Shown here: positions 1 to 58,966 of the stretch, one piece after another
How positions within the stretch are numbered: position 1 is the stretch's first letter
How the letters are laid out: each line of letters begins with the position of its first letter
Source: Dictyostelium discoideum
Lineage: Eukaryota
Assembly (NCBI GenBank): GCA_000004695.1
Contig: CM000151.3
Coordinates: forward strand, 832,001-896,000
Direction: 5' to 3'
DNA: 64,000 bases
Program-made: the position numbers and the translations under genes
The notes under the pieces: generated by a model
Told to the model about the DNA's origin: nothing
Seen by the model: the letters and a program-made list of their open reading frames with translations, nothing else
The model's database searches: none

Positions 1-1
1 A

Positions 2-2238: not shown

Positions 2239-2277
<39 letters not shown>

Positions 2278-2355
2278 AATTAATTTAATTTTTACAGTTT
2301 ATTGAATTATTTTTAGTATTTGTTTTAATCTTTTAATTTAAATAATTTTACAGTT

Positions 2356-2685: not shown

Positions 2686-2834
2686 TTTTAATTTTGTTAA
2701 TTGGAAATTAATTTTTTGATTTAATGATTATAAAATAAAAAAAAAAAAAACCTTTTATATCAAATTTTTTTAAACAAAAATTATTTATTTTTATTTGTTT
2801 TTAATTTATCTTACAAAAAATAAAAATAATAATT

Positions 2835-3038
2835 AACTATCAATTAAGAAATAATGTGTTAATGGGGGTAATTATTGTGTGTTAATTAATCAACCGAATC
2901 CACCAAGGTTTTGATATGTATAAACTATTAAGTTAATACTTCATATAAATTTTTTTTTTTAAAATTTATATTGTTTCAGTTTAATTGTTCAAACACACAA
3001 TTAACCCCTCATTAACACATTATTTCCTAATTGATAGT
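2835..3038. promoter_or_regulatory. Bidirectional intergenic palindrome between divergent hssl copies B and C. Arms are about 2835-2889 and 2981-3038, with a conserved ~100-bp spacer.
   Basis: ACTATCAATTAAGAAATAATGTGTTAATGGGGGTAATTATTGTGTG is matched by the reverse complement of CACACAATTAACCCCTCATTAACACATTATTTCCTAATTGATAGT. G5/C5 cores in otherwise ~85% AT DNA. Confidence 0.6.
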
Positions 3039-3389
3039 AAATTTAAAGTATTTTTATTTATTTTTAAAGAATTTTTATTTATTCTACTCACACATCATAT
3101 TAAAATTTTTTTTTTTTTTTTTTTTTATTGTGTGGTATAATTTAATATATCTATTATACAAGAAAATAGTTTTTTGAAAATGAGATCTTTTGTGATCTAA
3201 ACAGTTAAATTTCTGAAAAAAAAGAATTTAATTATAATAATAAATTATTTGTTTTTTTTAAATTGATTTTTTTTTTTTTTAAATTTTTTTTTTTTCAAAA
3301 GTTCAAAATAAAAGTATAAATTCTAATTTTATTTCAATCATTATTTCATTAAATTAAACAATCAAAAAAATTTTAAATAAATTAATAAA

Positions 3390-3739
3390 ATGACACTCTT
3401 AGGTAAGTAATTAAATAATTAATTATAGTTTATTAAAAAATAATTTTATTAATTACTTATTTTTTAATATTAAAAAACTTAGCTTCAATCTCATCAATTG
3501 GTAATGTTAAATCAATTTCAAAATCAAATAATTTTTCATCATTATCAAACTCGTCATTACAATCATCAAACTCAATACAATGTGGTGGCTGCGGTGGTGG
3601 TAGTCCATTAATTGGTACTGTTGGTAATCTCGTCGGTGGTGTACTTGTCGGAACTGGTATTATTGTTGGTACTGTCATTGGAACTGTCAATGGTGTTGTT
3701 GGTGGTTTATTAAATGGACCAAACTGTGGATGTCATTAG
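3390..3739 (+). CDS. HssA/B-like protein, copy C. Exons 3390..3402 and 3483..3739, intron 3403..3482.
   Basis: ATGACACTCTTAG|GTAAGT ... CTTAG|CTTCAATC. The spliced product is [89 protein letters not shown] (89 aa). The 77-aa minus-strand ORF in the provided track is its antisense artefact. Confidence 0.75.
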
Positions 3740-3940
3740 AACTGTAAAATTATTTAAATTATAATATTTTGTAATCAAAAAAGTTTTTTTATAATAAATA
3801 ACTTTGTATTAATAAAAAATTAAATCCAAAAAAGACTTAATGTTTCATTTTTTATTTTTTTATAATTTTTTTATTTTATTTTTACAATATTGTAAATTAC
3901 AAAAAGAGATTGATTATTTATACTTTTTTAAATTAATTAC

Positions 3941-4225
3941 ACTGACTTTCAACAGTTCTAGCATTTAGAATTAAAATATCAATTTGATATTACTTATAAA
4001 ATTTAATTAACCAATCTTTTAATTTACTTTGTCAGTAATATCAATCGATTCTACTTGAACACCAATATCCAAACATTCTTTTTTACTTCTTCTAATATTT
4101 CAATTTCCTTCCAGTCAAACCAAACCTCTTCCAGGATGACGCACCTGTGATAACTATTGCTTTTGGTGTCGGAAAATTTGTTTTCTTTTTTTATAATTTA
4201 AAAAACTTAATATTGTATAAAATAA
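3941..4225 (-). pseudogene. Decayed, internally deleted relic of SDR exon 1.
   Basis: Collinear nucleotide similarity to 6655-7000 (ACTGACTTTCAACAGTTC.AGCATTT..AATTAAAATATCAATTT, then CACCTGTGATAACTATTGCTTTTGGTGT.GG.AAATTTGTTTTCTTTTTTTATAATTTAAAAAAC). It has gaps and no intact ORF. Confidence 0.5.
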
Positions 4226-4348
4226 AATATAAACAAATGAATTCAAAAATAATTTTTTTATTTTTAAATAATGAATTTAATTTTTACAGTTTATTGAATT
4301 ATTTTTAGTTTTTGTTTTATATCTATTAATTTAAATAATTTTACAGTT

Positions 4349-4688
4349 TTAATGGCAACCACAGTTTGGACCACTTAATAAACCACCAACAACACCATTG
4401 ACAGTTCCAACGACAGTACCAAGAATAATACCAGTTCCGACAAGTACACCACCTACGAGATTACCAACAGTACCAATTAATGGACTACCCCCACCGCAGC
4501 CACATTGAATTGAATTTGATGATTGTAATGACGAGTTTGATAATGATGAAAAATTATTTGATTTTGAAATTGATTTAACATTACCAATTGATGAGATTGA
4601 AGCTATTTAAAAATAATATAAAATAATTAATTTTTAATTATTTTGTGTATATATTTTTAGATTTTAAAGACATACCTAAGATTGTCAT
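4349..4688 (-). CDS. HssA/B-like protein, copy D. Exons 4676..4688 and 4349..4602.
   Basis: Minus strand: ATGACAATCTTAG|GTATGT ... AAATAG|CTTCAATC. The 88-aa product ends [11 protein letters not shown]. It carries a 3-nt in-frame deletion relative to copy C (QCGCGGGSP). Confidence 0.7.
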
Positions 4689-4837
4689 TTTTTTAATATT
4701 GCTAATTGTAAATTTTAATAGTTTGATTTAATGATTTTTTTTTAAAATAAAAAAACCTTTTATATCAAATTTTTTAAAACAATAATTATTTTTTTTTATT
4801 TATTTTTAATTTATCTTACAAAATAATAATAATAATT

Positions 4838-5041
4838 AACTATCAATTAGGAAATAATGTGTTAGTGGGGGTAAATATTGTGTGTTAATTAATCAACCGA
4901 ATCTACCGAAGTTTTTATATGTATAAACTATTGTGTTAGTTCTTCATATAAATTTTTTTTTTTAAAATTTATATTGTTTCAGTTTAATTGTTCAAACACA
5001 CAATTAACCCCACATTAACACATTATTTCCTATTTGATAGT
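4838..5041. promoter_or_regulatory. Bidirectional intergenic palindrome between divergent hssl copies D and E.
   Basis: Arms are about 4838-4893 and 4984-5041 (GTGTTAGTGGGGGTAAATATTGTGTG and CACACAATTAACCCCACATTAACAC). Same spacer as the B/C unit. Confidence 0.6.
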
Positions 5042-5374
5042 AAATTTATATTATTATTATTTTTTTTTTTTTTTAGAAGTTTTATTTATTAACACATATT
5101 AATAATTTTTTTTTTTTTTGTGTGGTTTAATTTAGTATATCAATTATACAAGAAAATAATTTTTTGAAAATGAGATTTTTTGTGATTTAAACAGTTAAAT
5201 ATCTGAAAAAAAAAAGAATTTAATTATAAAAATAAATTATTTGTTTTTTTTTTAAATTAATTATATTTTTTAATTTTTTTTTTATTGAAAATAAAAGTAT
5301 AAATTCTAATTTTATTTTCAATCATTATTTCATTAAATCAAACAATCAAATAAACTTTAAAATAAATTAATAAA

Positions 5375-5721
5375 ATGACACTCTTAGGTAAATAATTAAA
5401 ATAAATTGTAGTTTATTAAAAAGTAATTTTATTAATTTATTTTATTTTATAAATTTAAAAAATTTAGCTTCAATCTCATCAATTGGTAATGTTAAATCAA
5501 TTTCAAAATCAAATAATTTTTCATCATTATCAAACTCATCATTACAATCATCAAACTCAATACAATGTGGTGGCTGCGGTGGTAGTCCATTAATTGGTAC
5601 TGTTGGTAATCTCGTAGGTGGTGTACTTGTCGGAACTGGTATTATTGTTGGTACTGTCGTTGGAACTGTCAATGGTGTTGTTGGTGGTTTATTAAGTGGT
5701 CCAAACTGTGGATGCCATTAA
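5375..5721 (+). CDS. HssA/B-like protein, copy E. Exons 5375..5387 and 5468..5721.
   Basis: ATGACACTCTTAG|GTAAAT ... TTTAG|CTTCAATC. The 88-aa product is ...[54 protein letters not shown]. Confidence 0.75.
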
Positions 5722-5871
5722 ATTTATTAAAATCGATAATGTTTTTTTATAATAAATAAATTTGTATAAATAAAAAATGAATTTCAAAAAAGACTTAACA
5801 TGTTCATTTTTATTATAACTATTTTTTTTTTTTTTTTTTACAATATTATAAATTACAAAAAAAAAGATTGA

Positions 5872-7063
5872 TTATTTATTATGAGTCTTAATTTTTTGAG
5901 AATTTAAATTTTTAACTGATGAGGAGGGACAATTTTCTCTTTTTGATTCATTTGTAGAATATCGAGAGTGATGAGAATAATGAGTTACTGGTTTCCTATA
6001 GTCTGGATATTTTGCAAGAGAATTTATAATAAAATTAGTGGCATCTCTTAAAGTTGGTGGAATTGTGGCAAAGAAATGAGATATACAATAAACTAAAGGT
6101 GGGCATGAAATTATTGCATCATTTCTACTAATACCATCTACAATGTATTTTGAAGCTTTGTCAGTTGTTATAGGTAGTAACATTGGTATATCTTTATAAT
6201 CCAAAGAATCAACTAATGGAGTATAAACAAAACCTGGTATTATTACTGAAACGCCAACACCTCTTGATGCTAAACCATTTCTAAGTATTAACCCAAATGA
6301 TTTTAGGTAACCTTTACTTGATGAATATCCTGCCATTGTATAATCAAAATATGGTGTAATACTTGACATCAAAACCAATTGACCAGATCCTCTTGATTCA
6401 AAGATTGGTACCATTGGTAAAACTGTATTCAAGGTTCCAATTACCTATAATAAATAATTTATTAATTAGTTTTAAAAGAATATCATTACTTTTTATATTT
6501 TTAAAATTATTTAAGATATTACATTTGTGTTTGTAACTGTTAATATTCTTTCAGTAAAATCTAATTCTTTTGGTAACATTGCTGGAATTTTTTTTTTAAA
6601 TATAAATAAATATATTAAGAAAACCAATTTTTTTTTTTTTAAAAAAGTAATTATACTGACTTTCAACAGTTCCAGCATTTGCAATTAAAATATCAATTTT
6701 ATATTTATTATCAAATTTAATTAACCAATCATATAATTTTTCTTTGTCAGTGACATCAATTGATTCAATTTCTACTTGAACACCAAGATCCAAACATTCT
6801 TTTTGAATTTCTTCTAATTTTTCAATGTTTCTTCCAGTTAAACCTAAAACCAAAGAATTATTGGTTTTTCTTTTTGCATATTCAAGTGCTATTCCTCTAC
6901 CAATACCAGATGATGCACCCGTGATAACTATTGCTTTTGGTGTTGGGAAATTTGTTTTCTTTTTTTTATAATTTAAAAAACCTAATATAGGATAAAATAT
7001 TAAAAGAATCATTGAACCAATTATATTGGTCAACAATAAAGATATATCAGTTAGCACTGCCAT
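5872..7063 (-). CDS. Short-chain dehydrogenase/reductase (classical SDR, N-terminal membrane anchor), paralogue 1. Exons 6661..7063, 6523..6581 and 5872..6444.
   Basis: Exon 1 carries a TM helix plus the Rossmann motif ITGASSGIGRGIALEYAKR and IANAG, with a GTCAGT donor. The 59-nt middle exon (acceptor TTCCAG) encodes MLPKELDFTERILTVTNTN, with a GTAATA donor. Exon 3 (acceptor TTATAG) encodes VIGTLNTVLPMVPIFESRGSGQLVLMSS...YSSSKGYLKSF, the catalytic S..YxxxK. Frame is continuous across both junctions, giving 344 aa. Confidence 0.7.
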
Positions 7064-7130
7064 TCTTATTATTAATTTTTTTTGAAAAATTTAAATTAAA
7101 AAAAAATTTAAATTAATAAAAAAAATTTAA

Positions 7131-7168
<38 letters not shown>

Positions 7169-7334
7169 TTAAAGTGTTAAAATTCTAAACCGTTTAAAAG
7201 AATGTTTAATTAATTAATTCAAAAACACCAAGAATAAAAATTGATTTACAATATTAAATTTTCATTTTTTAACAAATTTTTTTTATATTTTTTAAAAAAA
7301 ATACAAAACAGGAAGGTTGTCAAAACAGATCTAT

Positions 7335-7382
<48 letters not shown>

Positions 7383-7645
7383 TTTAATATAAAATTAAAT
7401 AATTAAATAAATCATTTTAAATCTAATTTTAATTTTAAAAACATTTTACAAAGATTAAAATCAGATTTAAAATAACTTTTTCTTTAGTTAATCAAATAAT
7501 AATTAAATAATTTCAAAAGTTTATATTTATACTTTTTTTTTTTATTCATTTTCATATTCACTTTTAATAAGATTATCATAAAAAATTCTGAATTGTTTTA
7601 ATGAAATAAATTTATTAAATATTTTAAAAAAATGAATTCAAAATT

Positions 7646-7680
<35 letters not shown>

Positions 7681-7760
7681 AATAATGAATTTAATTTTTA
7701 CAGTTTATTGAATTATTTTTAGTATTTTTTTATATCTATTAATATAAATAATTTTCAGTT

Positions 7761-8107
7761 CTAATGACATCCACAGTTTGGACCACTTAATAAACCACCA
7801 ACAACACCATTGACAGTTCCAACAACAGTACCAAGAATAATACCAGTTCCAACAAGTACTCCACCGACGAGATTACCTACGGTACCAATTAATGGACTAC
7901 CACCACCGCAGCCACATTGAATTGAATTTGATGATTGTAATGACGAGTTTGATAATGATGAAAAATTATTTGATTTTGAAATTGATTTAACATTACCAAT
8001 TGTTGAGATTGAAGCTAAGTTTTTAATATTAAAAAATAAATAATTAATAAAATTTTTTTTTAATAAACTACTATTAATTATTTTAATTACTTACCTAAGA
8101 GTGTCAT
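7761..8107 (-). CDS. HssA/B-like protein, copy F. Exons 8095..8107 and 7761..8014.
   Basis: Minus strand: ATGACACTCTTAG|GTAAGT ... ACTTAG|CTTCAATCTCAACAATTGG. The 88-aa product ends CGCH*. Confidence 0.7.
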
Positions 8108-8246
8108 TTTATTAATTTATTTAGAGTATTTTGATTTAATGATTTATTAAAAAAAAAAAAAAAAAAAAAATCCTTTTATATCAAAATTTTTTATAACAAT
8201 AATAACAACGTTTATTTGCTTTTAATTTATCTTAATAATAGTAATT

Positions 8247-8447
8247 AACTATCAATTAGGAAATAATGTGTTGGTGGGGGTAAATATTGTGTGTTAATTA
8301 ATCAACCGAATCTACCGAAGTTTTTATATGTATAAACTATCGTGTTAGTACTTCATATAAACTTTTTTTTTAAATTTATATGTTTCAGTTTAATTGTTCA
8401 AACACACAATTAACCCCACAATAACATATTATTTCCTAATTGATAGT
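8247..8447. promoter_or_regulatory. Bidirectional intergenic palindrome between divergent hssl copies F and G.
   Basis: Arms are about 8247-8305 and 8388-8447 (GTGTTGGTGGGGGTAAATATTGTGTG and CACACAATTAACCCCACAATAACAT). Confidence 0.6.
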
Positions 8448-8761
8448 AAATTTATATTATTATTATTATTTTTTAAAAAAAGTTTTATTTATTCTTCTCA
8501 CACACATTAAAAATAATAATATTTTTTTTTTTGTGAGGTTTAATTTAATATATCGATTATATAAGAAAATAATATTTTGAAAATAAGATTTTTTGTGATT
8601 TAAACAGTTAAATATCTGAAAAAAAGAATTTAATTATAATAATTAATTATTTGTTTTTTTTAATTTTTTTATTTTTTTTATTCAAAATAAAAGTATAAAT
8701 TCTAATTTTATTTTCAATCATTAAATTAAACAATCAAATAAACTCTAAATAAATTAATAAA

Positions 8762-9112
8762 ATGACACTCTTAGGTAAGTAATTAAAATAATTAATAGTA
8801 GTTGATTAAAAAATAATTTTATTAATTATTTATTTTTTAATATTAAAAAACTTAGCTTCAATCTCAACAATTGGTAATGTTAAATCAATTTCAAAATCAA
8901 ATAATTTTTCATCATTATCAAACTCATCATTACAATCATCAAATTCAATTCAATGCGGTGGCTGCGGTGGTGGTAATTCATTAATTGGTACTGTTGGAGG
9001 TCTTGTTGGTGGTGTACTTGTTGGAACTGGTATTATTGTTGGTACTGTCATTGGAACTGTTAATGGTGTTGTTGGTGGTTTATTAAGTGGTCCAAGCTGT
9101 GGATGCCATTAA
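8762..9112 (+). CDS. HssA/B-like protein, copy G. Exons 8762..8774 and 8856..9112.
   Basis: ATGACACTCTTAG|GTAAGT ... CTTAG|CTTCAATC. The 89-aa product is ...[55 protein letters not shown]. Confidence 0.75.
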
Positions 9113-9261
9113 AATAATGTTTTTTAGAATAAATAAATTTGTATATATAAAAAATGAAATTCAAAAAATACCTAACACCTTTCTTTTTTTTTTTTTATTA
9201 TTTGTTTTTAATTTTTTTATATAATTACTAAAATTGAATTTTTTTTTTTTTTTTTTAAAAA

Positions 9262-9365
9262 TTAATTACACTGACTTCCAACTGTTCCAGTATTTGCAAT
9301 TGATCAATTTGATGTTTATCATCCAAATTTAATTAACTGATCTTTATATTTTCTTTGTCAGTGAC
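9262..9365 (-). pseudogene. Short relic of SDR exon 1, between hssl copies G and H.
   Basis: ACTGACTTCCAACTGTTCCAGTATTTGCAATTGATCAATTTGAT...TTTCTTTGTCAGTGACATCA is collinear with 6655-6760 of the intact SDR gene. No ORF. Confidence 0.4.
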
Positions 9366-9528
9366 ATCATAAAAATTCTGAATTTGTAGTTATAAAATGT
9401 AACATGTAAAGATTAACAAATGAATTCAAAAATAATTTTTTTTTTTTTTTATTAATTTAATTTTTACAGTTTATTTGAATTATTTTTAGTATTTGTTATA
9501 TATTTTTTAATTTAAATAATTTTACATT

Positions 9529-9870
9529 TTAATGGCAACCACAGTTTGGACCACTTAATAAACCACCAACAACACCATTGACAGTTCCAACGACAGTACC
9601 AACAATAATACCAGTTCCTACAAGTACACCACCCACAAGATTACCAACAGTACCAATTAATGGACTACCACCACCACAGCCACCACATTGAATTGAATTT
9701 GATGATTGTAATGACGAGTTTGATAATGATGAAAAATTATTTGATTTTGAAATTGATTTAACATTACCAATTGATGAGATTGAAGCTATTTAATAATAAA
9801 ATAAAATAATTAATTTTTAATTATTTTGTGTATATTTTTTAGATTTTAAAGACATACCTAAGATTGTCAT
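9529..9870 (-). CDS. HssA/B-like protein, copy H. Exons 9858..9870 and 9529..9785.
   Basis: Minus strand: ATGACAATCTTAG|GTATGT ... AAATAG|CTTCAATC. The 89-aa product ends CGCH*. Confidence 0.7.
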
Positions 9871-10008
9871 TTTTTTAATTTTGTTAATTGTAAATTTTAA
9901 TAGTTTGATTTAATGATTTTTTTAAAAAAAAAAAAACCTTTTATATCATAATTTTTAAATTTTTTTATTTGTTTTTAATTTATCTTACAAAAAAAAAAAA
10001 TAATAATA

Positions 10009-10210
10009 AACTATCAATTAGGAAATTTATGTGTTAGTGGGGGTAAATATTGTGTTAATTAATCAACCGAATCTACCGAAGTTTTTATATGTATAAACTA
10101 TCGTGTTAGTACTTCATATAAACTTTTTTTTTAAATTTATATTGTTTCAGTTTAATTGTTCAAACACACAATTAACCTCACAATAACATATTATTTCCTA
10201 ATAGATAGTA
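10009..10210. promoter_or_regulatory. Bidirectional intergenic palindrome between divergent hssl copies H and I.
   Basis: Arms are about 10009-10062 and 10152-10210 (GTGTTAGTGGGGGTAAATATTGTGTTAATTAA and CACACAATTAACCTCACAATAACAT). Confidence 0.6.
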
Positions 10211-10562
10211 TATTTTTATTATTATTTTTTTTTTAAAAAAAGTTTTGTTTTTTCTTCTCACACATATCATATAAAAAATAATAATAATAATTTTTTTTTT
10301 TTTTTTGTGTGGTTTAATTTAATATATCGATTATACAAGAAAATCGTTTTTTGAAAATGAGATTTTTTGTGATTTAAACAGTTAAATATCTGAAAAAAAG
10401 AATTTAATTATAATAATTGATTATTTGTTTTTTTTTTTAAAATTAATTATATTATTTAATTTTTTTTTTTTATTCAAAATAAAAGTATAAATTCTAAATT
10501 TATTTTCAATCATTATTTCATTAAATCAAACAATCAAATAAACTTAAAAATAAATTAATAAA

Positions 10563-10912
10563 ATGACACTCTTAGGTAAATAATTATAATTAATTATAGT
10601 TTATTAAAAAAGTAATTTTATTAATTATTTTATTTTATAATATTAAAAAACTTAGCTTCAATCTCATCAATTGGTAATGTTAAATCAATTTCAAAATCAA
10701 ATAATTTTTCATCATTATCAAACTCATCATTACAATCATCAAATTCAATTCAATGTGGTGGCTGCGGTGGTGGTAGTCCATTAATTGGTACTGTTGGTAA
10801 TCTCGTCGGTGGAGTACTTGTTGGAACTGGTATTATTGTTGGTACTGTTGTTGGAACTGTCAATGGAGTTGTTGGAGGTTTATTAAGTGGTCCAAACTGT
10901 GGATGTCATTAA
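10563..10912 (+). CDS. HssA/B-like protein, copy I. Exons 10563..10575 and 10656..10912.
   Basis: ATGACACTCTTAG|GTAAAT ... CTTAG|CTTCAATC. The 89-aa product is ...[55 protein letters not shown]. Confidence 0.75.
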
Positions 10913-11066
10913 AATAAATGTTTTTTTATAATAAATAGCTTTGTACAAATAAAAATGAAATTCAAAAAGATTTAATACATTTCTTTTTTTTTTATTATTT
11001 ATTTTTTTATTTTTTATTTTTACAATATTTATTTTTAAATTAGAAAAAATGATTAATTATTTATTA

Positions 11067-12242
11067 TTATGCCTCTTTATTTTTTTGAGAATTTGAATTC
11101 ATAGCTGGTGAGGAGGGACAATCCTCTCTTTTTGATTCATTTGTTGAATATTGAGAGTGATGAGAATAATGAGTTACTGGTTTACTATAATCTGGATATT
11201 TCAAAAGAGAATTTGAAATGAAATTAGTGGCATCTCTTAAAGTTGGTGGAATTGTGGCAACGAAATGAGATATACAATAAATTAAAGGTGGGAATGAAAT
11301 TATTGCATCATTTCTACTAATGCCATCGACAATGTATTTTGAAGCTTTGTCAGTTGTTATAGGTAGTAACATAGGTATATCCTTATAATCCAAAGAATCA
11401 ACTAATGGAGTATAAATAAAACCTGGTGTTATTACTGAAACGCCAACGCCTCTTGATGCTAAACCATTTCTAAGTATTAACCCAAATGATTTTATGTAAC
11501 CTTTACTTGATGAATATCCTGCCATTACATAATCAAAATATGGTGTAATACTTGACATCAAAACCAATTGACCAGATCCTCTTGATTCAAAGATTGGTAC
11601 CATTGGTAAAACTGTATTCAATGTTCCAATTACCTATAATAATTTATTAATTAGTTTTAAAAGAATATCGTTACTTTATATTCAAATTATTTAAGATATT
11701 ACATTTGTGTTTGCAACTGTTAATATTCTTTCAGTAAAATCTAATTCTTTTGGTAAAATTGCTATGAAAATTATTTTTTTTAAATAATTAATACAAGTAA
11801 ACCTTTTTTTTTTTTTTAAAAAAAATTATGTATACTGACTTTCAATAGTTCCAGCATTTGCAATTAAAATATCAATTTTATATTTATTGTCAAATTTAAT
11901 TAACCAATCATTTAATTTTTCTTTGTCAGTGACATCGATTGATTCAATTTCTACTTGAACACCAAGACCCAAACATTCTTTTTGAATTTCTTCTAATTTT
12001 TCAATGTTTCTTCCAGTTAAACCTAAAACCAAAGAGTTATTTTTTTTTCTTTTTGCATATTCAAGTGCTATTCCTCTACCAATACCAGATGATGCACCCG
12101 TGATAACTATTGCTTTTGGTGTTGGGAAATTTGTTTTCTTTTTTTTATAATTTAAAAAACCTAATATAGGATAAAATATTAATAGAATTATTGAACCAAT
12201 TATATTGGTCAACAATAATGATATATCAGTTAAGACTCCCAT
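11067..12242 (-). CDS. Short-chain dehydrogenase/reductase, paralogue 2. Exons 11840..12242, 11703..11761 and 11067..11633.
   Basis: Exon-intron structure is identical to paralogue 1 (GTCAGT donor; 59-nt middle exon with TCATAG acceptor encoding ILPKELDFTERILTVANTN; GTAATA donor; TTATAG acceptor). Motifs TGASSGIGRGIALEYAKR, IANAG and YSSSKGYIKSF are present. About 342 aa. Confidence 0.7.
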
Positions 12243-13699: not shown

Positions 13700-13884
13700 C
13701 ACTAACTTTAAAAAATAAAAATATTCAGAAAAAAAAAAAAAAATAAAAAAAAAAATAAAAAAAGCTAAAAATAAAAAAATCTCGAAAAATTAGGTTTTAA
13801 AAAATGAAAAGTTTTTTTTTAAATATTTATTTTTTTTTTTTCCACAATTACCACCATTCTATAGATAAAATTAATAATTTATAA

Positions 13885-40357: not shown

Positions 40358-40718
40358 TTATTTCTTTTTATTTGTTGTTGAAGTTGTGGTTTGTTTTTTT
40401 CTTGCAGAAGATTGATCATTTATTGTTTTTTGAAGTTTTTCATGAGCAACAACATTCTTTTTAGCATCACCATGTTGTTTGAACCAATCAGCTCTAGCTT
40501 GAGCTTTTGCTTTTTCACCACATCCATGAATTTCATAGAGTGCATGTTGAGTACAATATTTATGAGTACAAAATTGACAAATTCTTCCTAAAATTTCAAC
40601 ATTTTTCCCACAACCTTTCATACCACAAATTCTTAAATCAACTTCTCTTAATTCAATTGCTTCAAATTCTTTTAATAATTCGTCAGCAGATTTCTTATCA
40701 ACAGATTTCTTTTTAGTA

Positions 40719-40752
<34 letters not shown>

Positions 40753-43432
40753 TTGGTTTTTTTGCTTTCTTTTTCTTTTTCTTTGTTTTATTTGTAGAAT
40801 TTGTTGTTGTTTTTGTTGTTGTACCATCATTTTCTTTTTGTTCATCTTCATCATTTTCTTCATCTTCATCTTCATCTTGTTCATCTTCATCATTATCATT
40901 TTCATGATTTTTATCAGATTTTTTAATTTTCTTTGAAATTGTTATTACTCTATTTTCACCTTCACCAACTGATTGATGATTTAATTTATTTTTTTCAGCT
41001 AATTCATGAACAACCAATCTTTCAAAAGATGATAATGTTGAAGGAAAACTATGAGATTCCATTGAAGTTTTCATAAATGTATTAACGATTGATTCTAATT
41101 GTAATCTTAATTTTTCTTTTTCTTCTTGTTTCTCTAAATCATCTTTATTTTTTTTCTTTTCTTTTTCTTCAATACTTTTTTTATTCTTTTTATCTTTTAA
41201 CATTTCAATTTTTGATTTTTTATTTGAATCATTATTTGTATTAGTTGTAGTGGTGGTGGTGGTGGTTGTTGAATTATTATTATTATCATCTTTATTTAAA
41301 CTAATATCCCAATTATCAGTATCACTTGGTAAGAATTCATCTTCAATATATTCTAAAGCCGATCTAAATAAACCATTTAATTTAAAATAATCAACCATAC
41401 GTTTTAAAGGTTCATGAGAAGAGATTGTATCAGTATCACAAACTACAACTACATGTTTTCTAGCACGAGTTATAGCAACATTTGTTCTTCTATCTTCAGT
41501 AAGGAAACCAACTTTATGTGGAGCATCAGTATTTGAACGTACCATTGAAATGATGATTACATCTTTTTCTCTACCTTGGAAACCATCTACTGTACCAATT
41601 TCCATTGATGAATATTTTTTAGAGAGATAAGATTTTAAGAGTTTAACTTGACCATTGTATGGAGTGATTACACCGATATCATTTGGTTTTACACCACATT
41701 CTATTAATTTTTCAATATGTCTTTTTACAACGATAACCTCACCATTATTAAATTTTGATTCACCTTCATCATCTTGACTTTCTTCCATATCACAACCACT
41801 TGTATCAATCATTAAAAGAGGACAAGTTGTTGTTAAGGTATTTCTAATTTTTGGTGAATCACCAGTCACCAATAGATGATTTGAAACTGATTTATCAGCA
41901 ATCATTTTTGAATTATAAAATTCCATTGAAGACCAATCCATAATTTTATGATTCATACGATATTGAACATTTAAAAGACGTGAAACTTGATCACCATATT
42001 GTTTAATGATACGCTCGAATAGGGTAATTGATAAACCCATTTTAGCGGCTTCCATTGAATGAATGGTTGGTGGTAATTGTTGATGATCTCCTGCCAACAA
42101 TAGTTTATTACCTTTTTGAATTGGTATCCAACAACTTGCTTCCAATGCTTGAGCACATTCATCTATTACAACCCAGTCAAAATTATCAATACCTTTTAAT
42201 GATGAATCAGATGCACCTGTATTTGTTGAAAGTATTACATTTGAATCGTTTATAACTTGTTGAATTAATGATTTCTCTCTATTCTTTAAATCAATACGTA
42301 ACTCTTTAATAGATGATTGTATAACTCTTCTCTCGGAATGTTGTTTAACTTTTAATAATTGTTTTGATAAACTTTTAATCTCATCTTTAATACCTTTAAT
42401 AATTTGACCACCTTCACTATTCTTTGTTTTATGATCTAATGTATGTTTTAATAATTGTGGTAAAATTCTAGTTGGATGACCAATTCTAGTTGCATTTATT
42501 AAAAAACCATTACAACTACTACTATTTGAATATTCTAATAATTTCTCCAACATATTATCAACAGATAAATTAGATGGACCACAAGCTAATACTTTTTTAC
42601 CAGATTTAATTAATTGGACAATGAATTCAACAACGGTTGTAGTTTTACCAGTACCAGGTGGACCATGAATACATGCTACATCATTTGATGATAATGAAAA
42701 TAATATTGCTTCTTTTTGTGATTGATTTAAACCTTTATTTATTAATTGTTGTTCAAATTTCTCTTTATTAATTTGTTGAAAATAACTATTATTATTTGAT
42801 GGTTGATATCCATCATTTAATAATAAATTGATTAATGAATTCTCGCTATTACCAGTTCTTTTATTTACATTTAATTTTAATTTATCTAATGATTCTCTAA
42901 TTTTCTTATAGGTTACATCATTTGCTAATTTATCGATTGAATATAATGTTTGAAAATATTCATCCAACATTGGTCTATTATTTGGATCACTATCTTCGTA
43001 ATTATCATCGAATGCAATAACTATCTTTCTAGAATCAACTTTATAAACTACACCTTTAAAATAATGATTTGTACCTGGTTTTGATTTTGATGGTCTAATA
43101 CCTACTATATCACCATTTGAAATTTTATGTGGTGGTAAATCAAAATTATCATCTTCATCATCACCATCACTATCTTTATCATTATTTTGCTTTTTATTAT
43201 TATTATTATTGTTTGATCCACCATTATCAACAAACGATGCTCTTGCAAGTTTTATTAAAATTCTACCTGATAAACCTGTTGAAAAATTTAAAATCTTAAC
43301 TTTATTAATTGTAACACCTTTTAATTCTAATTCTTTATTTGATAATGTTGCAAAGTTTTCAATTGCTTCATTAACTTCTGATTCTTTTTCAATATCTAAT
43401 AATTCTAATGTTTTTTTAATATAATTTTCCAT
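40358..43432 (-). CDS. ighmbp2: IGHMBP2/SMUBP-2-type superfamily-1 helicase (1024 aa) with a C-terminal R3H-like region and an AN1-type zinc finger.
   Basis: Walker A is IHGPPGTGKTTTVVEFI. Also DECAQALEASCWIP, LLAGDHQQLPPTI, VDGFQGREKDVIIISMVRSN and VAITRARKHVVVVCD. The C-terminus CGMKGCGKNVEILGRICQFCTHKYCTQHALYEIHGCG matches the AN1 pattern. The N-terminus MENYIKKTLELLDIEKESE resembles IGHMBP2. Confidence 0.85.
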
Positions 43433-50439: not shown

Positions 50440-52344
50440 ATGTCAATTTATCATGGTATTATAGGATCATCAGATCACATTCAAAATATTTTCCCACCAC
50501 CATCACCTAGAAAAAATATTTCATTATCAACAAATAATATATCAAGTTTAACAACACCTAAAAATTTTACAGCTATAGTAGTGACAAAACCATTGTCTCA
50601 ATCAACAACATCAACTCAGGAAATGATGAATACATCAGATGTAAGTAATAATTTATTTTTATTTTTATTTTTATAAAAAATTATTAATTAAATTTTTTTT
50701 TTTTTTTTTTTTTTTTAATTTTTGATAGATTTTATTTGACATTCAACAACCATTATCACCACAACATCATTCAAGACAAATACAACAACAACAACATGAA
50801 AAAATTACACCAGAAGAAGAAGAAAGAAGATCAGATGAATTACAAAAGATATTATTAGATACTATACCAATATTAATTAAAGGTGTTGAAACATTAGGAA
50901 TTGAAGTTGAACAAATTTGTAATGGTGATAGTGCAAATGAAAAGAGATCAAATTGTCAAGTATTGGTTGATATTCAAAAAACATTGAGAGAGTATCCACG
51001 TGGTATGGGATATCGTTCAAAGACCATTCCATCCAATATAGTGGGTAAACCAAAACTGATTGCATTTCGTCATAGTATGGACCAATTAGTTTGGGAGAAC
51101 ATTTCAAAATTATCAATTCTAAAGGATTTCGTAGAGTTTACATTAGACTTTCAAAAACTTTGTGTCATTGGTATTAGTATTCGTGATGCTATCAATTCAT
51201 TTGTAAATAATAAATGTGAATACTTGATTAAAGGTTTTGAATTTAACAATACAAATTCAATTTTATCTGGTATAAATATTCATCATCATCTTAATCACCA
51301 ACCTGGTGCATCAACACCAAGACCATCGCATTCATCCTCATCATCGTTATCACATTCATTATCATCATCACCAATGTCACAATCATTACCATCATCATTA
51401 ACATCTGGTGGTGTATCATTATTAAATACAAGTGATGATGCTATCGTACCATCACTATCATCAGGTAATGATGATAGTAGTGGTAGTAGTTTGTCATCAT
51501 CAGATGCAAATGTAATTTCAATTAATATTAGTACAGTAATTCAAAATGGTGTTAGAGATGAAATTAATAATACATCAATCTCTGCTTTAAAGAAATCACA
51601 AAAACAACAACCTGTAGTATTATCTCGTGCTCCAAAACAAGTTATGGAAAGTACTAGAATATTGGTTGATACCGTTGTCAATAGAAAATGTATGTATAGA
51701 GAAGAGAAAGCATCAATCTATAGAGAGATGATGAATGATCGTTTAACACTTTTAAAAGAAGATCCAAAGAAATTTAAACAACAACTTTTACAACAACGTC
51801 GTCAAAAATTAACAAATTCTGATCAACCTCATGAAACTGATTATAATGAGGATTTTAATTTAAACAATAATAGTACTAATAATAATAATAATATAAAAAA
51901 AGAATCAAATGGTTCATCTGTAAATAGTCAAACAACAACAACCACAACTACAACAAATAATAATAATAATAATATTTCACCACAACATTCTGGAACAAGT
52001 GGTTCACCAAGCGATAAAGAAAATTCACCAATATTTAGTCCAGGATATTTATCAACATCACCACCAAAATCACCACCAAAATCACCAGAATTTCTTGGTG
52101 TACCAATTGGTAAGAAAGCTCATTTATTAGGTCATGCACGTTCATTTAGTGCAGATACTCATGCAACTAAGGAGGCAGCAGCTAATCAACATCATCATTC
52201 TCATAATAATATTGGTTCAGTTTTATCACCTCCATTATCTTCTCAAAATGAAAGAATCTTAAGAAATTATAAACTTTTATCATCATCACCATCATCATCT
52301 AGCTCAGCAGTAGTTACCAATCCTGTATCATTAACAACCCAATT

Positions 52345-53413: not shown

Positions 53414-53695
53414 TCTGATTCAAACCTTCCAACTACAAATAATCTTCCAATAATTACAAATGTAAATTATAAAATTTCAATCGGTTGTAAAGAAGAAGTT
53501 CAAAATTTTGGTCCTGCTTTCCCAAAGAATCATATTTTCTCAACTTCAACTGGTGAAAATCTCACTGATTTCCTTTTAACTAGATTGATCAATGGTGAAA
53601 GAGCAACTCTAAAATCACCTGTATTTGCTCAAAAATTAAAAAGAACAAGAAAAGAATTTTTACATTCATTCATTACTGATTTTGGTAGTGAATAA
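50440..53695 (+). CDS. Rap-GAP domain protein (about 1056 aa). Exons 50440..50640 and 50729..53695.
   Basis: Exon 1 ends ...TSD|GTAAGT with acceptor TTGATAG in phase 0. The RapGAP catalytic core is FKFGVLYCSENQGTDENELYSN...IMYHVAPMIPCRAADEQSVERKRHLGNDIVLIIYKEGNTKLFDPSIIKSNFNHIFAVVQKV, which follows the family pattern. Long Ser/Asn/Gln-rich linkers. Confidence 0.8.
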
Positions 53696-54553
53696 ATTAT
53701 TTATTAAAACTTTTTTTTTGGTTTTTTTTTTTTTTTTTTCAATCAACCAATCAAAAAAAAAAAAAAACAAATCCAAACAAAAAAAAAAAAAAAAAACCAA
53801 ATCTAAAAAAAAAAAAAAGGTTTAGAAAAAACATTAAAAAAAAATAAGTAGCGTAATTTGTAACAATATTTAGTAAAAATAAAATAAACAAAAATAAAAT
53901 AAGATAATAAATGTATCAAAAAAAAAAATAAAAAATAAAAAAAAAATAAAATATGAATATATAAACATTACTACATATCCATTAAAAATCTCAAAAAATC
54001 CAATTTTAACAATTAGTCACCAGGTATTTAAGTTAGCTCATTGAAATTATTAGAAACAATTAAACTAACTTTAATGATCAAGAATAATTCTAATCCATTT
54101 ATTCAATAAATCAACTCAATTTAGTAAACAGAAGAAAGTTTTTTATTGGTCTAAAAAAAGAAAAAAAAAATATGTAAAGGAAAAAAAATGATATTTTTTA
54201 TATTAAAAATAAACATAATTTTTTTGGAATATATTGAAAATATTTAGTTTTTATTTTATTCACTATCAAAAGTGGTGAATTGTCTTTTTTTATTTTTATT
54301 ATTTTTTAAAAAAAATGAGGTTATTTATTTTCAAATATTTAAAAAAATAAAATTAATTTTATTAACCTTTTTTTTTCTCTCTATTTTTTTTTTTTTTTTG
54401 CAAACTGATGATATTATTTCACAGTACTTACAATTGATATTTACAACTCATTATTCATTTAGCTAGATAGAATTTGTCTGGTTTCTATGATTTCTCCATC
54501 CAGGTCATTATTGATACCATCAATTATAAATTGGTAAAATTAGACTACATCAT

Positions 54554-54724
54554 TGGTACCAAATGCCATTATTTCTTTTTTTTCAATCTGCTTTACTCTC
54601 AATTTTAACCAACAACAATTATATTTTCAATGGCTAAAAACATTAAACGATGTTATAATTGTTGTTGGTTTAAAAATTGATAGTAAAGCAGATTGCAACA
54701 AAGAAATAATGGCATTTGGTACCA
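54554..54724. repeat. Near-perfect ~70-bp inverted repeat (hairpin-forming) with a ~30-bp loop.
   Basis: Left arm is TGGTACCAAATGCCATTATTTCTTTTTTTCAATCTGCTTTACTCTCAATTTTAACCAACAACAATTAT. The reverse complement of the right arm, ATAATTGTTGTTGGTTTAAAAATTGATAGTAAAGCAGATTGCAACAAAGAAATAATGGCATTTGGTACCA, matches it at about 90%. Confidence 0.75.
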
Positions 54725-55241
54725 ATGATGAACAAAATTTTGATCGACAGCATTTATTGTCTCTTTGAATTTATTACTTTCAGATGGTTCATCGATTTTT
54801 GTGCTACTAAGATATCCATCAACTCTATATAAATATCTGTTTGTAATTCCATTGGTTTGAGTTGTTGTGGTTTTGGTTGTTTCTCAATTTTCGTCTCTGA
54901 TAATTTATAAAGAGTTACCTTATTTTGATTTAAATCAAAAAAGCAATTAATAAAACTTTGAATTTTCAAATCCCAAAATAACAATAAAATAAATAGATTA
55001 AATAGATTAAATAAAAAAAAAAAAAAAATAAAAAAAAATAACAAAACCTTTGTTTAATAATCTTTGTTTAATTTATTTATTTTTAGTTTTAGTTTTATTT
55101 TTATTTTTAGTTGTGTTTTTTTTTTTTTTTAAATTTTAAAAAAATTCTAAAAATGTCCAAGATCTAGATAGAACAAAATCTTGTTTTTAAGTTCCAAGAA
55201 ATAAAATAAAAATTTTGAGTTATAAAAATCTATAGATTTTA

Positions 55242-55549
55242 TTAATAATCGCCATCATAACTTCTAAAGTCCTCAACTTTATATTTCTTTTGGTAATGTT
55301 GATAATTGCTATCTCTGTTATTGGTTTTATCATTTGGATTAGATTCTTTCAAAAATATGACACTATCATCATTTTCATTATCTCTTTCTCTTCTTCTTGT
55401 TGCAATTTTATTACTATTATTTTTATTACTATTAATGACACTATCATTATTTTCGTTATCCCTCTCTCTTCTTCTCGTTATAATTTTGTTACTATTATTA
55501 ACCGCACCATCATTATTTTCGTTATCCCTTTCTCTTTTTCTTGTTATAA

Positions 55550-55620
<71 letters not shown>

Positions 55621-55863
55621 TTTTTATTTTTATTATTATTATTATTTTTAACTTTATCCAAATCGACCATTGAGTCTATATCATTATCTTTTTCTCTATC
55701 TCTTTCTCTTGTTTTGTGATTTTTATCTTTTTTATCCTTTTCTTTTTCCTTCTCTTGATTACCTTTTTTATTCTTTTTTTTTTTCTTTTTATCGTTTTTT
55801 TCTTCAGATGATTCTTTGTTACTGTTATTGCTATTGTTTTTGTTGTTATTACTACTATTATTA

Positions 55864-55894
<31 letters not shown>

Positions 55895-56855
55895 GAGATG
55901 TTTTTTGTTTTTTTGATTTTCTTGAATAACTATCTTTTACTCTATAATCATTTTGATCATCATCATTGTAATCATCTGAACCATCTTGGTATTTACCAAA
56001 GTCCTTATTATTTTTATGATTATAATTGCTGTAATCATTATATGAATTATTATTATTGTAGTTATTATTATTATTATTATATCTATTATTTTTATTATAT
56101 TTTCCATCGAATCTATTATTTATATTTGTACTATTGTATCTATTACTATTATAATTGAATCTTTCATTTCTATCATATCTATGATAATCTTGATTATATT
56201 GACCATTATTATTACTATGGTCAATATCTTTTGGAAAACCATCTTTATCATATCTATCGTATCTATCATATCTATCATATCTATCATTTCTATCATATCT
56301 ATCATTTCTATCATATCTATTATTATTATTATAATTATCTCTATAACCATCATTATCTCTATCTCTTTCTCTATCTCTATCTCTTCCTCTATCTCTACCT
56401 CTATTTGAACGATCAGAATTTTTAACCTCTTTCTCTTTAAATCTCATACGTTGATGCATTCTACTATGTTTTTCCCTTAGTGAATGATCATCATCATATT
56501 CTCCATCATATAAATTACCTAATTCATGCTCTGACGAATCAATTTCATTGAAATACTTTTGATATTTTGGTAAACATTGCTTTTTTTTTTTTTTTTTTTT
56601 AATTGTTAGTAATTTTAAGTTGAATTAATTTGAATATTTTAATTTTGGAGAGAAAAAAAAAAAAAGCATTAAAATACCTACTCTTGGATAGTGACCATGT
56701 AAACCACATCTAAAACAAACGTAAACTGAACATGAAGCTATTTGATGTCCAAACTCACCACATCTAAAGCAAGGTTTCTCTTCTATATCATGTGGACATT
56801 CAAAACTAAAATGATCATGATCACCACATCTTTCACATTTGATAGACTCTTCCAT
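55242..56855 (-). CDS. CCHC zinc-knuckle protein with a long Arg/Asp/Tyr/Asn-rich tail (about 503 aa). Exons 56682..56855 and 55242..56579.
   Basis: Three CX2CX4HX4C knuckles: CERCGDHDHFSFEC, CFRCGEFGHQIASC and CFRCGLHGHYPR|QC. The third is completed only after splicing (GTAGGT donor, poly-A..AG acceptor, phase 0), which supports the junction. The tail has RDRGRDRDRERDRD and repeated RYDRNDRYD units. Confidence 0.65.
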
Positions 56856-58517: not shown

Positions 58518-58966
58518 ATGCAAACCAGTGAATGTAAAGTTAAAGGTCCAATCCAAGAAGGTTGTGCCTCTGGATGTGAAAAAAGCTGGAGTGCCTACCA
58601 AGCATGTTCAGGTCGTGTTGCCAAATTAGAGCATGACGAAAAAGCAAACTGTTTAGGTCAATTTTTAGAACATGTTCAATGTATTGATAAATGTGTATGT
58701 ATTTTATATCCTTTTTTTTATTTTTTTTTGTTTTTTTTTTTTTTTAATTAAAAAAATTAAAAAACTTTATTTTTTCATTTTTTCTTTTAATTGTTTTGTT
58801 TTGCGTGTGTGTTTTTTTTATTTTTTATTTTTTTTTTTTTGTGTTTCGATTTGGTAAAAATGTTTTTATTTTATTTTTATTTTTATTTTATTTGGTTATT
58901 CAAATAATTAAATTCGTTTTGTAAAAACAAAAATAGAATTTCTTCATTTATGGTATTGTTACAGTT

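What the first reader, a model, noticed from the sequence alone, without database searches (positions are those of the whole stretch)
54554..54724. Isolated ~70-bp-arm hairpin in an intergenic region
The arms are about 90% complementary with a ~30-nt loop, and there are no flanking coding features. The overlapping 71-aa ORF is implausible. Candidates are a miRNA-like or other structured RNA precursor, a MITE-type foldback element, or a replication or recombination hotspot. It is unrelated in sequence to the hssl palindromes.
Basis: seen in the sequence. Interest (0 to 1): 0.5.

Follow-up and report, generated by a model that had tools for sequence, protein, structure and literature searches.

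The report
Young template-switch hairpin in Dictyostelium spacer
A real, single-copy 183-base hairpin lies between two genes on Dictyostelium discoideum chromosome 2; it was probably made by one DNA-copying slip in this lineage, and it looks like raw material for a small-RNA gene rather than a proven one.

Summary
The hairpin is real and slightly larger than reported, at 54548-54730. Its arms are 75 and 78 nt and match at 71 of 79 aligned positions, around a loop of about 30 nt. RNA MFE is about -100 kcal/mol on either strand (z about -18.7). It is by far the strongest 200-nt fold in the window.

The window is D. discoideum AX4 chromosome 2. The hairpin sits in a 536-nt, ORF-free island (54400-54935, 27.8% GC, spacers about 14%) between convergent RapGAP and CCHC-knuckle genes.

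Three divergent "D. discoideum" assemblies were fetched. Two cover the locus.
- ACTFIW has the island with one arm and the loop in the opposite orientation. It does not fold.
- ACTFIY lacks the whole module.

AX4 equals the ACTFIW arrangement with 54623-54730 replaced by the reverse complement of the adjacent arm plus loop. One template-switch replication event explains the arm gain, the loop inversion and the lost 26 nt.

There is no target-site duplication, no second copy in the DNA I hold, and no Rfam or protein match. The sequence is absent from the miRNA data I could search.

Best reading: a young hairpin in the AX4 lineage, a proto-miRNA or hairpin-siRNA candidate. Expression and dicing are untested.

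The parts
54548..54622 (+). Left arm (A_L) of the inverted repeat. It is collinear with the single arm of the ACTFIW lineage.
54623..54652 (+). Loop. It is the reverse complement of segment B, which follows the single arm in ACTFIW.
54653..54730 (+). Right arm. Under the template-switch model it is the reverse-complement copy of the ancestral arm, and 54623-54730 together form the 108-nt copied tract.
54400..54935 (.). Composition island (27.8% GC, spacers 14%) that carries the hairpin. It has no ORF with an ATG start longer than 32 aa inside the island and no protein homologues. A shorter version (about 320 nt, 30% GC) is present in ACTFIW.
54368..54400 (+). T-rich tract (T16 at 54384-54399) ending in G54400. 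It resembles the published pri-miRNA and Pol II start-site motif and lies 148 nt upstream of the hairpin base. ACTFIW has the equivalent T run followed by AG.
54949..54988 (+). Two AATAAA hexamers on the + strand, 220-255 nt downstream of the hairpin. They are possible poly(A) signals of a + strand transcript of about 570-600 nt.
54750..54883 (.). Segment present in AX4 and absent from ACTFIW. In AX4 it is bounded by an imperfect 27-nt direct repeat (54750-54776 and 54884-54910, 19 of 27 identical). Whether it was inserted or deleted is unresolved.
54106..55000 (.). Intergenic module of about 900 nt, absent at the syntenic site of the ACTFIY lineage, which has about 170 nt of unrelated sequence there. 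The right boundary lies in an A-rich tract and is approximate.
54553..54562 (.). Perfect 10-nt palindrome TTGGTACCAA inside the left arm. Its partner is at 54716-54725 in the right arm.

Best explanation
The hairpin is a young inverted duplication specific to the AX4 lineage, inside a fast-evolving noncoding module between two convergent genes.

Origin (inferred): the ancestral arrangement was flankL - A - B - S4 - flankR, as still seen in the ACTFIW lineage. During replication the nascent strand copied flankL and A. It then switched at an ATTAT microhomology to the opposite strand just right of B. There it copied B and A backwards for 108 nt, and then returned to the original template at flankR. 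That single template-switch mutation created the second arm, inverted the loop and deleted the 26-nt S4 in one step. Since then the arms have drifted to 90% identity without compensating changes.

Consequence (inferred, not shown): if the island is transcribed, the RNA folds into a near-perfect stem of about 76 bp. Transcription could start at the T16/G54400 start-site-like motif on the + strand, or come from read-through of either neighbouring gene. Dictyostelium Dicer-like nucleases would be expected to cut such a stem into small RNAs of about 21 nt.

It is therefore best described as a proto-miRNA or hairpin-siRNA locus: raw material with no demonstrated target or function.
For: Structure: (z about -18; strongest fold in 64 kb).

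Species and locus: one search gives an exact match of a window protein to XP_645520.1 of AX4 on an 8.48-Mb contig. Searches identify the RapGAP neighbour.

Comparative data:
- ACTFIW (L001) aligns collinearly through flankL and one arm. It then carries the AX4 loop in reverse orientation, followed by an unrelated 26 nt and then flankR.
- The ACTFIW region does not fold (MFE -24.6, z 0.11).
- ACTFIY (L004) lacks the whole module. By AN1-gene identity it appears to be the outgroup, on small margins (AX4-ACTFIW 96.7%, AX4-ACTFIY 95.5%, ACTFIW-ACTFIY 94.8%).

Template-switch test: the AX4 tract to the right of the left arm is 39% identical to the linear ACTFIW sequence. It is 67.5% identical to the reverse complement of the ACTFIW arm plus loop, and that alignment is collinear across the whole hairpin.

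Polarity:
- S4 shows no similarity to any arm (shuffle p 0.3-0.77).
- The AX4 arms are closer to each other (71/79) than either is to the ACTFIW arm (52/73 and 51/77).
- An ATTAT microhomology lies at the first switch.

Transcription-unit hints: island GC is 27.8% against 14% in the spacers. T16+G54400 is the only such motif near the hairpin, and AATAAA hexamers lie downstream.

Literature:
- Pri-miRNA start sites in D. discoideum are a G preceded by up to 26 T-rich nt (PMC6161686).
- Dictyostelid miRNAs turn over as whole intergenic 'modules', and young ones come from unusually long hairpins (PMC11014262).
- Expressed hairpin RNAs give siRNAs in D. discoideum (PMC3661229).
- Template switching creates hairpins and inverts loops in one step (PMC10710096).
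Against: - There are no expression or small-RNA data.
- The sequence is not in the precursor alignments or tables of Liao 2018, Edelbroek 2024 or Meier 2016.
- Polarity rests on parsimony and arm divergence only, because the one outgroup available lacks the module.
- Microhomology at the return switch is weak (TGATG against TGACG).
- At 108 nt the copied tract is longer than most described template-switch events.
- The stem mismatches are neither G-U pairs nor compensated (0-1 G-U in 76-77 pairs), so there is no sign of selection on pairing.
- The T-run+G motif is common: 17 on the + strand of this window, giving roughly an 8% chance of one falling within 300 nt.
- The arm derives from local noncoding sequence, so no trans target is evident.
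Confidence: 0.55

Rival explanations
1. It is a functional miRNA or hairpin-siRNA gene of D. discoideum that published surveys missed, for example because expression is low or stage-specific. It would be transcribed from G54400 and processed by DrnB/RbdB into one to three phased duplexes.
For: MFE per nt is -0.54, well past the -0.2 criterion. A T-rich+G start-site-like motif lies 148 nt upstream, within the published 116-281 nt range. The GC-rich island has AATAAA hexamers downstream. Some Dictyostelium hairpins yield two adjacent duplexes. miRNA loci are lineage-specific modules in dictyostelids.
Against: The sequence is not found in any miRNA data I could search. The sister lineage has no hairpin. 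Arm differences look neutral. No target is evident. Avesson 2012 could not be read, so absence from all lists is not proven.
Confidence: 0.17
2. The hairpin is ancestral to AX4 and ACTFIW. ACTFIW later inverted the loop and lost the right arm.
For: ACTFIW keeps ATAAT immediately after B, which matches the first bases of the AX4 right arm. ACTFIW also lacks 134 nt that AX4 has, bounded in AX4 by direct repeats, so that lineage may be prone to deletion here. Loop inversions by template switching are documented.
Against: It needs at least three events: loop inversion, a deletion of about 50 nt, and replacement by 26 nt with no detectable similarity to an arm (p 0.3-0.77). The template-switch model in the AX4 lineage needs one. 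The AX4 arms are more alike than either is to the ACTFIW arm.
Confidence: 0.15
3. It is a foldback or MITE-type transposon, such as a thug-like element, whose terminal inverted repeats form the arms.
For: It has long arms and a short loop. Thug-S elements in D. discoideum do give rise to miRNAs.
Against: There is no target-site duplication: the flanks are ...GACTA and AACAA.... It is single copy in the window and in L001, L003 and L004. The sister lineage has one arm plus the loop in collinear context rather than an empty or full site. The thug-S-derived small RNA sequences D3-5p and D3-3p are not in the window. Metagenome and prokaryote-genome scans found nothing.
Confidence: 0.04
4. The island is a decaying protein-coding gene on the - strand, and the hairpin is an internal rearrangement of that pseudogene with no RNA-level role.
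For: GC content of 28-30% is typical of exons. The + strand is T-rich, as expected for - strand coding. In ACTFIW one - strand frame runs for about 80 codons with a single stop (reading). A 28-aa stretch resembles a YD repeat.
Against: No Pfam hit and no word-index homologue were found. No gene is called there in the ACTFIW annotation. The phmmer hits are two giant RHS-repeat proteins whose score is the same short motif summed 37 and 16 times. A single comparison gives E about 3e-4. That segment is also absent from ACTFIW.
Confidence: 0.09

Closest known systems
Template-switch mutations that create miRNA hairpins de novo (Monttinen, Frilander and Loytynoja 2023, PMC10710096)
   Same: One replication event replaces a tract with the reverse complement of adjacent sequence. 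This makes a near-perfect stem from unstructured DNA and can invert a loop. Here the derived tract 54623-54730 equals the reverse complement of the neighbouring arm plus loop. One event explains all the local differences from the sister lineage, and there is a microhomology at the first switch.
   Different: The case is in Amoebozoa, not mammals. The copied tract is about 108 nt and the stem about 76 bp, against 30-55 bp stems in their screen. Polarity is not fixed by an outgroup. No expression or miRNA annotation is known.
Dictyostelium discoideum intergenic miRNA genes (ddi-mir-1176, ddi-mir-1177 and others; Liao 2018, PMC6161686; Edelbroek 2024, PMC11014262)
   Same: It has an intergenic location and a stable hairpin. 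A T-rich tract followed by a G lies 100-300 nt upstream. The module is lineage-specific and absent at the syntenic site of a close relative. Long, nearly perfect stems are taken in that work as a mark of young miRNAs.
   Different: The precursors listed in the Edelbroek table rows I saw are about 100-150 nt, and this one is 183 nt. No small-RNA reads, DrnB dependence or developmental regulation are known. It is not in the lists I could search.
Hairpin-RNA (hpRNA) endogenous siRNA loci and young plant MIRNA genes formed by inverted duplication (my own knowledge: Allen et al. 2004; Drosophila hpRNAs, Okamura et al. 2008)
   Same: A long, nearly perfect inverted repeat that would be diced into heterogeneous or phased small RNAs. 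It is evolutionarily young and lineage-specific.
   Different: Those loci derive from their target genes. Here the duplicated segment is local noncoding DNA with no detectable parent gene, so no target is implied.
thug-S foldback DNA transposon of D. discoideum
   Same: An inverted-repeat element able to form a hairpin, and a known source of miRNAs.
   Different: Thug-S is multicopy. This element is single copy in all the DNA I hold, has no target-site duplication, and lacks the thug-S-derived small-RNA sequences. Its arm is orthologous to unique sequence in a sister lineage.

Membership tests
Canonical miRNA precursor (criteria quoted in Liao 2018, PMC6161686) | Hairpin folding energy below -0.2 kcal/mol/nt | tested here: met
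   -98.6 kcal/mol for 183 nt, which is -0.54 kcal/mol/nt; z about -18.7
Canonical miRNA precursor (criteria quoted in Liao 2018, PMC6161686) | At least 10 reads on both arms, forming a duplex with a 2-nt 3' overhang and a common 5' end in at least 50% of reads | not testable with these tools
   No small-RNA read data are available here.
Canonical miRNA precursor (criteria quoted in Liao 2018, PMC6161686) | Small RNAs depend on DrnB/RbdB | not testable with these tools
   Needs drnB- or rbdB- small-RNA libraries.
Canonical miRNA precursor (criteria quoted in Liao 2018, PMC6161686) | Listed among published D. discoideum miRNAs or candidates | tested here: not met
   Eleven different 10-13-mers spanning both arms (some searched in both T and U spelling) are absent from the supplements of PMC6161686 and PMC11014262. 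One chance primer match was the only hit. A subset of them is also absent from the main text of PMC4894637. None of the 13 listed small RNAs is in the window. Avesson 2012 is not held, so the test is incomplete.
Canonical miRNA precursor (criteria quoted in Liao 2018, PMC6161686) | G start site preceded by up to 26 T-rich nt, upstream of the hairpin | tested here: met
   T16 at 54384-54399, then G54400, 148 nt upstream on the + strand. No such motif lies upstream on the - strand. Specificity is low: 17 such sites on the + strand of the window.
Template-switch mutation product | The derived tract is the reverse complement of adjacent ancestral sequence | tested here: met
   54623-54730 against the reverse complement of the ACTFIW arm plus loop: 67.5% identity including gaps, collinear. 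Against the linear ACTFIW sequence: 39%.
Template-switch mutation product | One event accounts for the whole cluster of differences | tested here: met
   Arm gain, loop inversion and loss of the 26-nt S4 all follow from one switch out and one switch back.
Template-switch mutation product | Microhomology at the switch points | tested here: inconclusive
   ATTAT is shared at the first switch. The return point has only TGATG against TGACG.
Template-switch mutation product | Ancestral state fixed by an outgroup | tested here: inconclusive
   The only outgroup reached (ACTFIY, L004) lacks the whole module. Polarity rests on S4 having no arm similarity and on arm-to-arm identity exceeding arm-to-orthologue identity.
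MITE / foldback transposon (thug-S-like) | Target-site duplication flanking the inverted repeats | tested here: not met
   The flanks are GACTA|CATCATT... and ...AATGATG|AACAA. There is no direct repeat of 2-9 nt.
MITE / foldback transposon (thug-S-like) | Multiple dispersed copies | tested here: inconclusive
   One copy in the 64-kb window and none elsewhere in L001, L003 or L004. The whole AX4 genome could not be searched.
MITE / foldback transposon (thug-S-like) | The orthologous site in a relative is either empty or carries the whole element | tested here: not met
   ACTFIW has one arm plus the loop embedded in collinear flanks.
Any Rfam family | Score at or above the family gathering threshold | tested here: not met
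   The best hits are generic plant MIR models at 29.6 and 27 bits, against thresholds of 100 and 120.

The most novel reading that the evidence does not exclude
This locus is a caught-in-the-act example, outside animals, of a miRNA-like gene born by a single replication template switch. An already transcribed noncoding module in the D. discoideum lineage acquired a 76-bp stem in one step and now yields DrnB-dependent 21-nt RNAs that surveys have missed or filtered out as imprecise.
Probability: 0.2. Interest if true: 0.6.

Novelty: new member of a known kind. Interest (0 to 1): 0.35.

Why it matters
Dictyostelid miRNAs are known to turn over very quickly, but how new hairpins arise there has not been shown. 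This locus offers a before-and-after pair. One sister lineage is unfolded and single-armed, AX4 has a 76-bp stem, and a third lineage lacks the module altogether. The pair fits the template-switch model so far documented in mammals. If small RNAs are made from it, it would extend that birth mechanism to Amoebozoa and give a tractable case in a genetic model organism. If none are made, it is a neutral structural variant and an example of how often such raw material arises without becoming a gene.

Tried and rejected
- **Rfam** scan of 53500-56000 at E up to 10 gave only generic hairpin noise.
- **Pfam** on four island peptides and both neighbours identified only the RapGAP neighbour.
- **Word-index protein search** with a chimera of three island peptides gave no hit at E up to 10.
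- **Protein search with the downstream CCHC gene** was swamped by low-complexity candidates and returned nothing. That used the last search of this kind.
- **Exact-sequence look-ups**: the 405-aa ORF is not on record. My spliced reconstructions of the AX4 RapGAP (1055 aa), the AX4 CCHC protein (772 aa) and the ACTFIW CCHC protein (837 aa) are not in the collection. So the ACTFIR locus (L003) and the near-identical D. discoideum strain (L005, 99.6% identity) stop at window positions 53250 and 53469, short of the hairpin.
- **D. purpureum locus L002** was fetched, but its file never appeared for scripting, so it was not compared.
- **Full phmmer scan** of the 76-aa - strand peptide found two giant RHS/YD-repeat proteins. 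I judge these chance, because one short motif is counted 37 and 16 times.
- **Metagenome scans** (two) and **one prokaryote-genome scan** for arm or flank patterns gave 0 hits.
- **Literature sequence searches** gave no relevant hit. Avesson 2012 is not held.
- **Remnant of a second arm in ACTFIW**: not significant.
- **Bacterial promoter and terminator scan**: uninformative for this organism.
- **An intron in a - strand gene**: the GT/AG candidates give a frame that stops after 9 codons, so I rejected it (reading).
- **A small-GTPase-like reading** of the right-arm ORF (IIVVGLKID): no Pfam or homologue support.

Full report
**1. The observation**

The sequence at 54548-54730 is a 183-nt inverted repeat.
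- Left arm: 54548-54622.
- Loop: 54623-54652.
- Right arm: 54653-54730.

The arms are identical at 71 of 79 aligned positions, and the outer 31 bp are perfect.

As RNA, 54540-54738 folds at -99.7 kcal/mol on the + strand and -101.4 on the - strand. Dinucleotide shuffles give -28.5 +/- 3.8 and -32.0 +/- 3.7, so z is about -18.7. As DNA it folds at -71.2 kcal/mol with z -17.5.

A scan of the whole window with 200-nt windows gives a mean of -23.0 (sd 9.4). This site scores -94.7 and the next best -60.1. The arm is found nowhere else in the window with up to 3 mismatches.

**2. Where it is**

One window ORF (40361-43432, - strand) is an exact match to XP_645520.1 of Dictyostelium discoideum AX4, on an 8,484,197-bp contig. 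That size matches chromosome 2 (the chromosome assignment is my own knowledge).

The hairpin lies in a 1.55-kb spacer between two convergent genes:
- a RapGAP-domain gene that ends at 53695;
- a CCHC zinc-knuckle gene on the - strand that ends at 55242.

Within the spacer, 54400-54935 is a composition island at 27.8% GC. The spacers on either side are 14.5% and 13.7%.

The island has no ORF with an ATG start longer than 32 aa. It has no Pfam match. A word-index search found no homologue. A full phmmer scan of one 76-aa reading found only two giant RHS/YD-repeat proteins, whose score is one 28-aa motif counted 37 and 16 times. A single comparison gives E about 3e-4, and I treat these hits as chance.

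Rfam gives only generic hairpin hits, far below threshold.

**3. Relatives**

The RapGAP search returned a 95%-identical protein from another "D. discoideum" assembly with locus tag ACTFIW. The cluster of the AN1 protein added ACTFIR, ACTFIY ("D. cf. discoideum") and a strain 99.6% identical to AX4. I fetched these loci.

AN1-gene identities are as follows.

| Pair | Identity |
|---|---|
| AX4 - ACTFIW | 96.7% |
| AX4 - ACTFIR | 96.8% |
| AX4 - ACTFIY | 95.5% |
| ACTFIW - ACTFIR | 99.1% |
| ACTFIW - ACTFIY | 94.8% |

On these small margins ACTFIY appears to be the outgroup to AX4 plus (ACTFIW, ACTFIR). Only ACTFIW and ACTFIY reach the hairpin site.

- **ACTFIY** matches AX4 up to about 54105 and again from about 54985. 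In between it has about 170 nt of unrelated sequence instead of about 900 nt, so the whole module is missing.
- **ACTFIW** has the island in shorter form, about 320 nt at 30% GC. Its order is flankL - A - B - S4 - flankR.
  - A is one copy of the arm.
  - B is the reverse complement of the AX4 loop.
  - S4 is 26 nt with no counterpart in AX4.
  - ACTFIW also lacks AX4 54750-54883.
  - The ACTFIW region does not fold (MFE -24.6, z 0.11).

**4. How the hairpin arose**

AX4 reads flankL - A_L - rc(B) - rc(A) - flankR. This is exactly the ACTFIW order with the tract "B - S4" replaced by the reverse complement of "A - B".

I built that product from the ACTFIW sequence and compared it with AX4. It aligns collinearly with AX4 across the whole hairpin. 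For the tract to the right of the left arm, identity is 67.5% to rc(A+B) and 39% to the linear ACTFIW sequence.

At the first junction AX4 reads CAACAATTAT|ATTTTCAATGG. The inferred ancestral sequence has ATTAT both at the end of A and, as its complement ATAAT, immediately after B. ACTFIW still has ATAAT there. This is a 5-nt microhomology for the switch. The return junction shows only TGATG against TGACG.

This is the signature of a template-switch mutation. In that mechanism the nascent strand jumps to the other strand, copies backwards, and returns. It is known to create inverted repeats and to invert loops in one step (PMC10710096).

The reverse polarity would have the hairpin ancestral and ACTFIW reduced. 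That needs a loop inversion, a deletion of about 50 nt, and replacement by 26 nt that show no similarity to an arm (shuffle p 0.3-0.77). The two AX4 arms are also closer to each other (90%) than either is to the ACTFIW arm (71% and 66% with gaps). I therefore favour one event in the AX4 lineage. No outgroup fixes this.

The arm divergence of 10% is many times the 0.4% between AX4 and the closely related strain. The hairpin is therefore probably fixed in D. discoideum proper rather than recent within it (inference).

The stem mismatches are not G-U pairs and are not compensated (0-1 G-U in 76-77 pairs). This looks like neutral drift.

**5. What it may do**

Nothing here shows transcription. The supporting hints are these.
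- The island is GC-rich, as Dictyostelium transcribed sequences are (my own knowledge).
- On the + strand a T16 run ends at G54400, 148 nt upstream of the stem. This resembles the published pri-miRNA start sites, a G after up to 26 T-rich nt, 116-281 nt upstream of the 5p arm (PMC6161686). ACTFIW has the equivalent T run followed by AG.
- No such motif lies upstream on the - strand.
- AATAAA hexamers follow at 54949 and 54983.

The motif is common, with 17 on the + strand of the window, so this is weak evidence.

Expressed hairpin RNAs do give siRNAs in D. discoideum (PMC3661229). Dictyostelid miRNA loci are gained and lost as whole intergenic modules, and unusually long, near-perfect hairpins are taken there as marks of young miRNAs (PMC11014262).

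Against a working miRNA:
- Eleven different 10-13-mers across both arms are absent from the supplementary precursor alignments and tables of PMC6161686 and PMC11014262. A subset is also absent from the main text of PMC4894637.
- None of the 13 small RNAs listed in PMC4894637 is in the window.
- Avesson 2012 could not be read.
- Because the duplicated segment is local noncoding DNA, no trans target is implied.

**6. Transposon reading**

The evidence is against it.
- There is no target-site duplication.
- There is no other copy in the window or in the three divergent loci.
- The sister lineage has one arm in place rather than an empty or full site.
- Thug-S-derived small-RNA sequences are absent.
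- Public metagenome and prokaryote-genome scans found nothing.
- The whole AX4 genome could not be searched.

**7. Verdict**

The hairpin is real and exceptional in this window. It is single copy as far as I could test, and it is specific to the AX4 lineage.

It is best explained as the product of one template-switch replication event inside a fast-evolving noncoding module. It is a plausible proto-miRNA or hairpin-siRNA locus with no evidence yet of expression or function.

It is a new member of known kinds: template-switch hairpins and young hairpin loci. Interest is moderate. It would rise if small RNAs are found, because the sister lineage preserves the "before" state.

Noticed in passing
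window 1-12000: An array of repeat units about 1.8-3.4 kb apart, in 4-5 copies at 60-100% identity. It contains many long inverted pairs, for example 4339-4605 with 5465-5731 (267 nt, 95%) and 5360-5720 with 7762-8122 (361 nt, 88%). It has no sequence similarity to the hairpin.
   Followed up: partly
window 8251-8450, 4851-5050, 2826-3025: These are among the five strongest 200-nt folds in the window (-60.1, -53.6 and -52.4 kcal/mol). All three lie at equivalent positions of the repeat units of the 1-12 kb array.
   Followed up: no
window 51376-51575: The third strongest local fold (-55.3 kcal/mol) lies inside the RapGAP coding region. It was not examined.
   Followed up: no
L001, L003, L004 (assemblies GCA_054859355.1, GCA_054859385.1, GCA_054859205.1): Assemblies labelled D. 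discoideum or D. cf. discoideum differ from AX4 by about 3-5% in a coding gene and about 10% over whole loci, with large intergenic indels. These look like cryptic lineages rather than strains. GCA_054883475.1 (L005) is 99.6% identical to AX4.
   Followed up: partly
L004 about 115-285 (- strand), syntenic to window 54106-55000: In place of the module, ACTFIY has about 170 nt of unrelated sequence. It includes the small perfect palindrome GTAGTTTTAAAACTAC. Its origin is unknown.
   Followed up: no
window 54750-54883: A 134-nt segment present in AX4 and absent from ACTFIW, bounded in AX4 by an imperfect 27-nt direct repeat (19 of 27). On the - strand it reads ...TTTTQTNGITNRYLYRVDGYLSS..., which resembles a single YD repeat. 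I judge that resemblance to be chance.
   Followed up: partly
window 54261-54277 and L001 about 13816-13832: A short element, CACTATCAAAAGTGGTG in AX4 and CACCATCAAAAGTGGTG in ACTFIW, is conserved in otherwise low-complexity spacer about 120 nt upstream of the T run. It can form a 4-bp stem (CACT/AGTG in the AX4 copy). It might be a promoter element of the island.
   Followed up: no
window 54553-54562 and 54716-54725: Each arm contains the perfect 10-nt palindrome TTGGTACCAA (a KpnI site). The ACTFIW arm has CTCCGTCAT at the equivalent place, so the outer 16 nt of the arm changed substantially between the lineages.
   Followed up: no
window 58518-58751: A short + strand ORF (MQTSECKVKGPIQEGCASGCEKSWSAYQACSGRVAKLEHDE...) looks like a cytochrome bc1 hinge-type protein exon (my own recollection, not tested). 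No gene was called at the matching place in the ACTFIW annotation.
   Followed up: no
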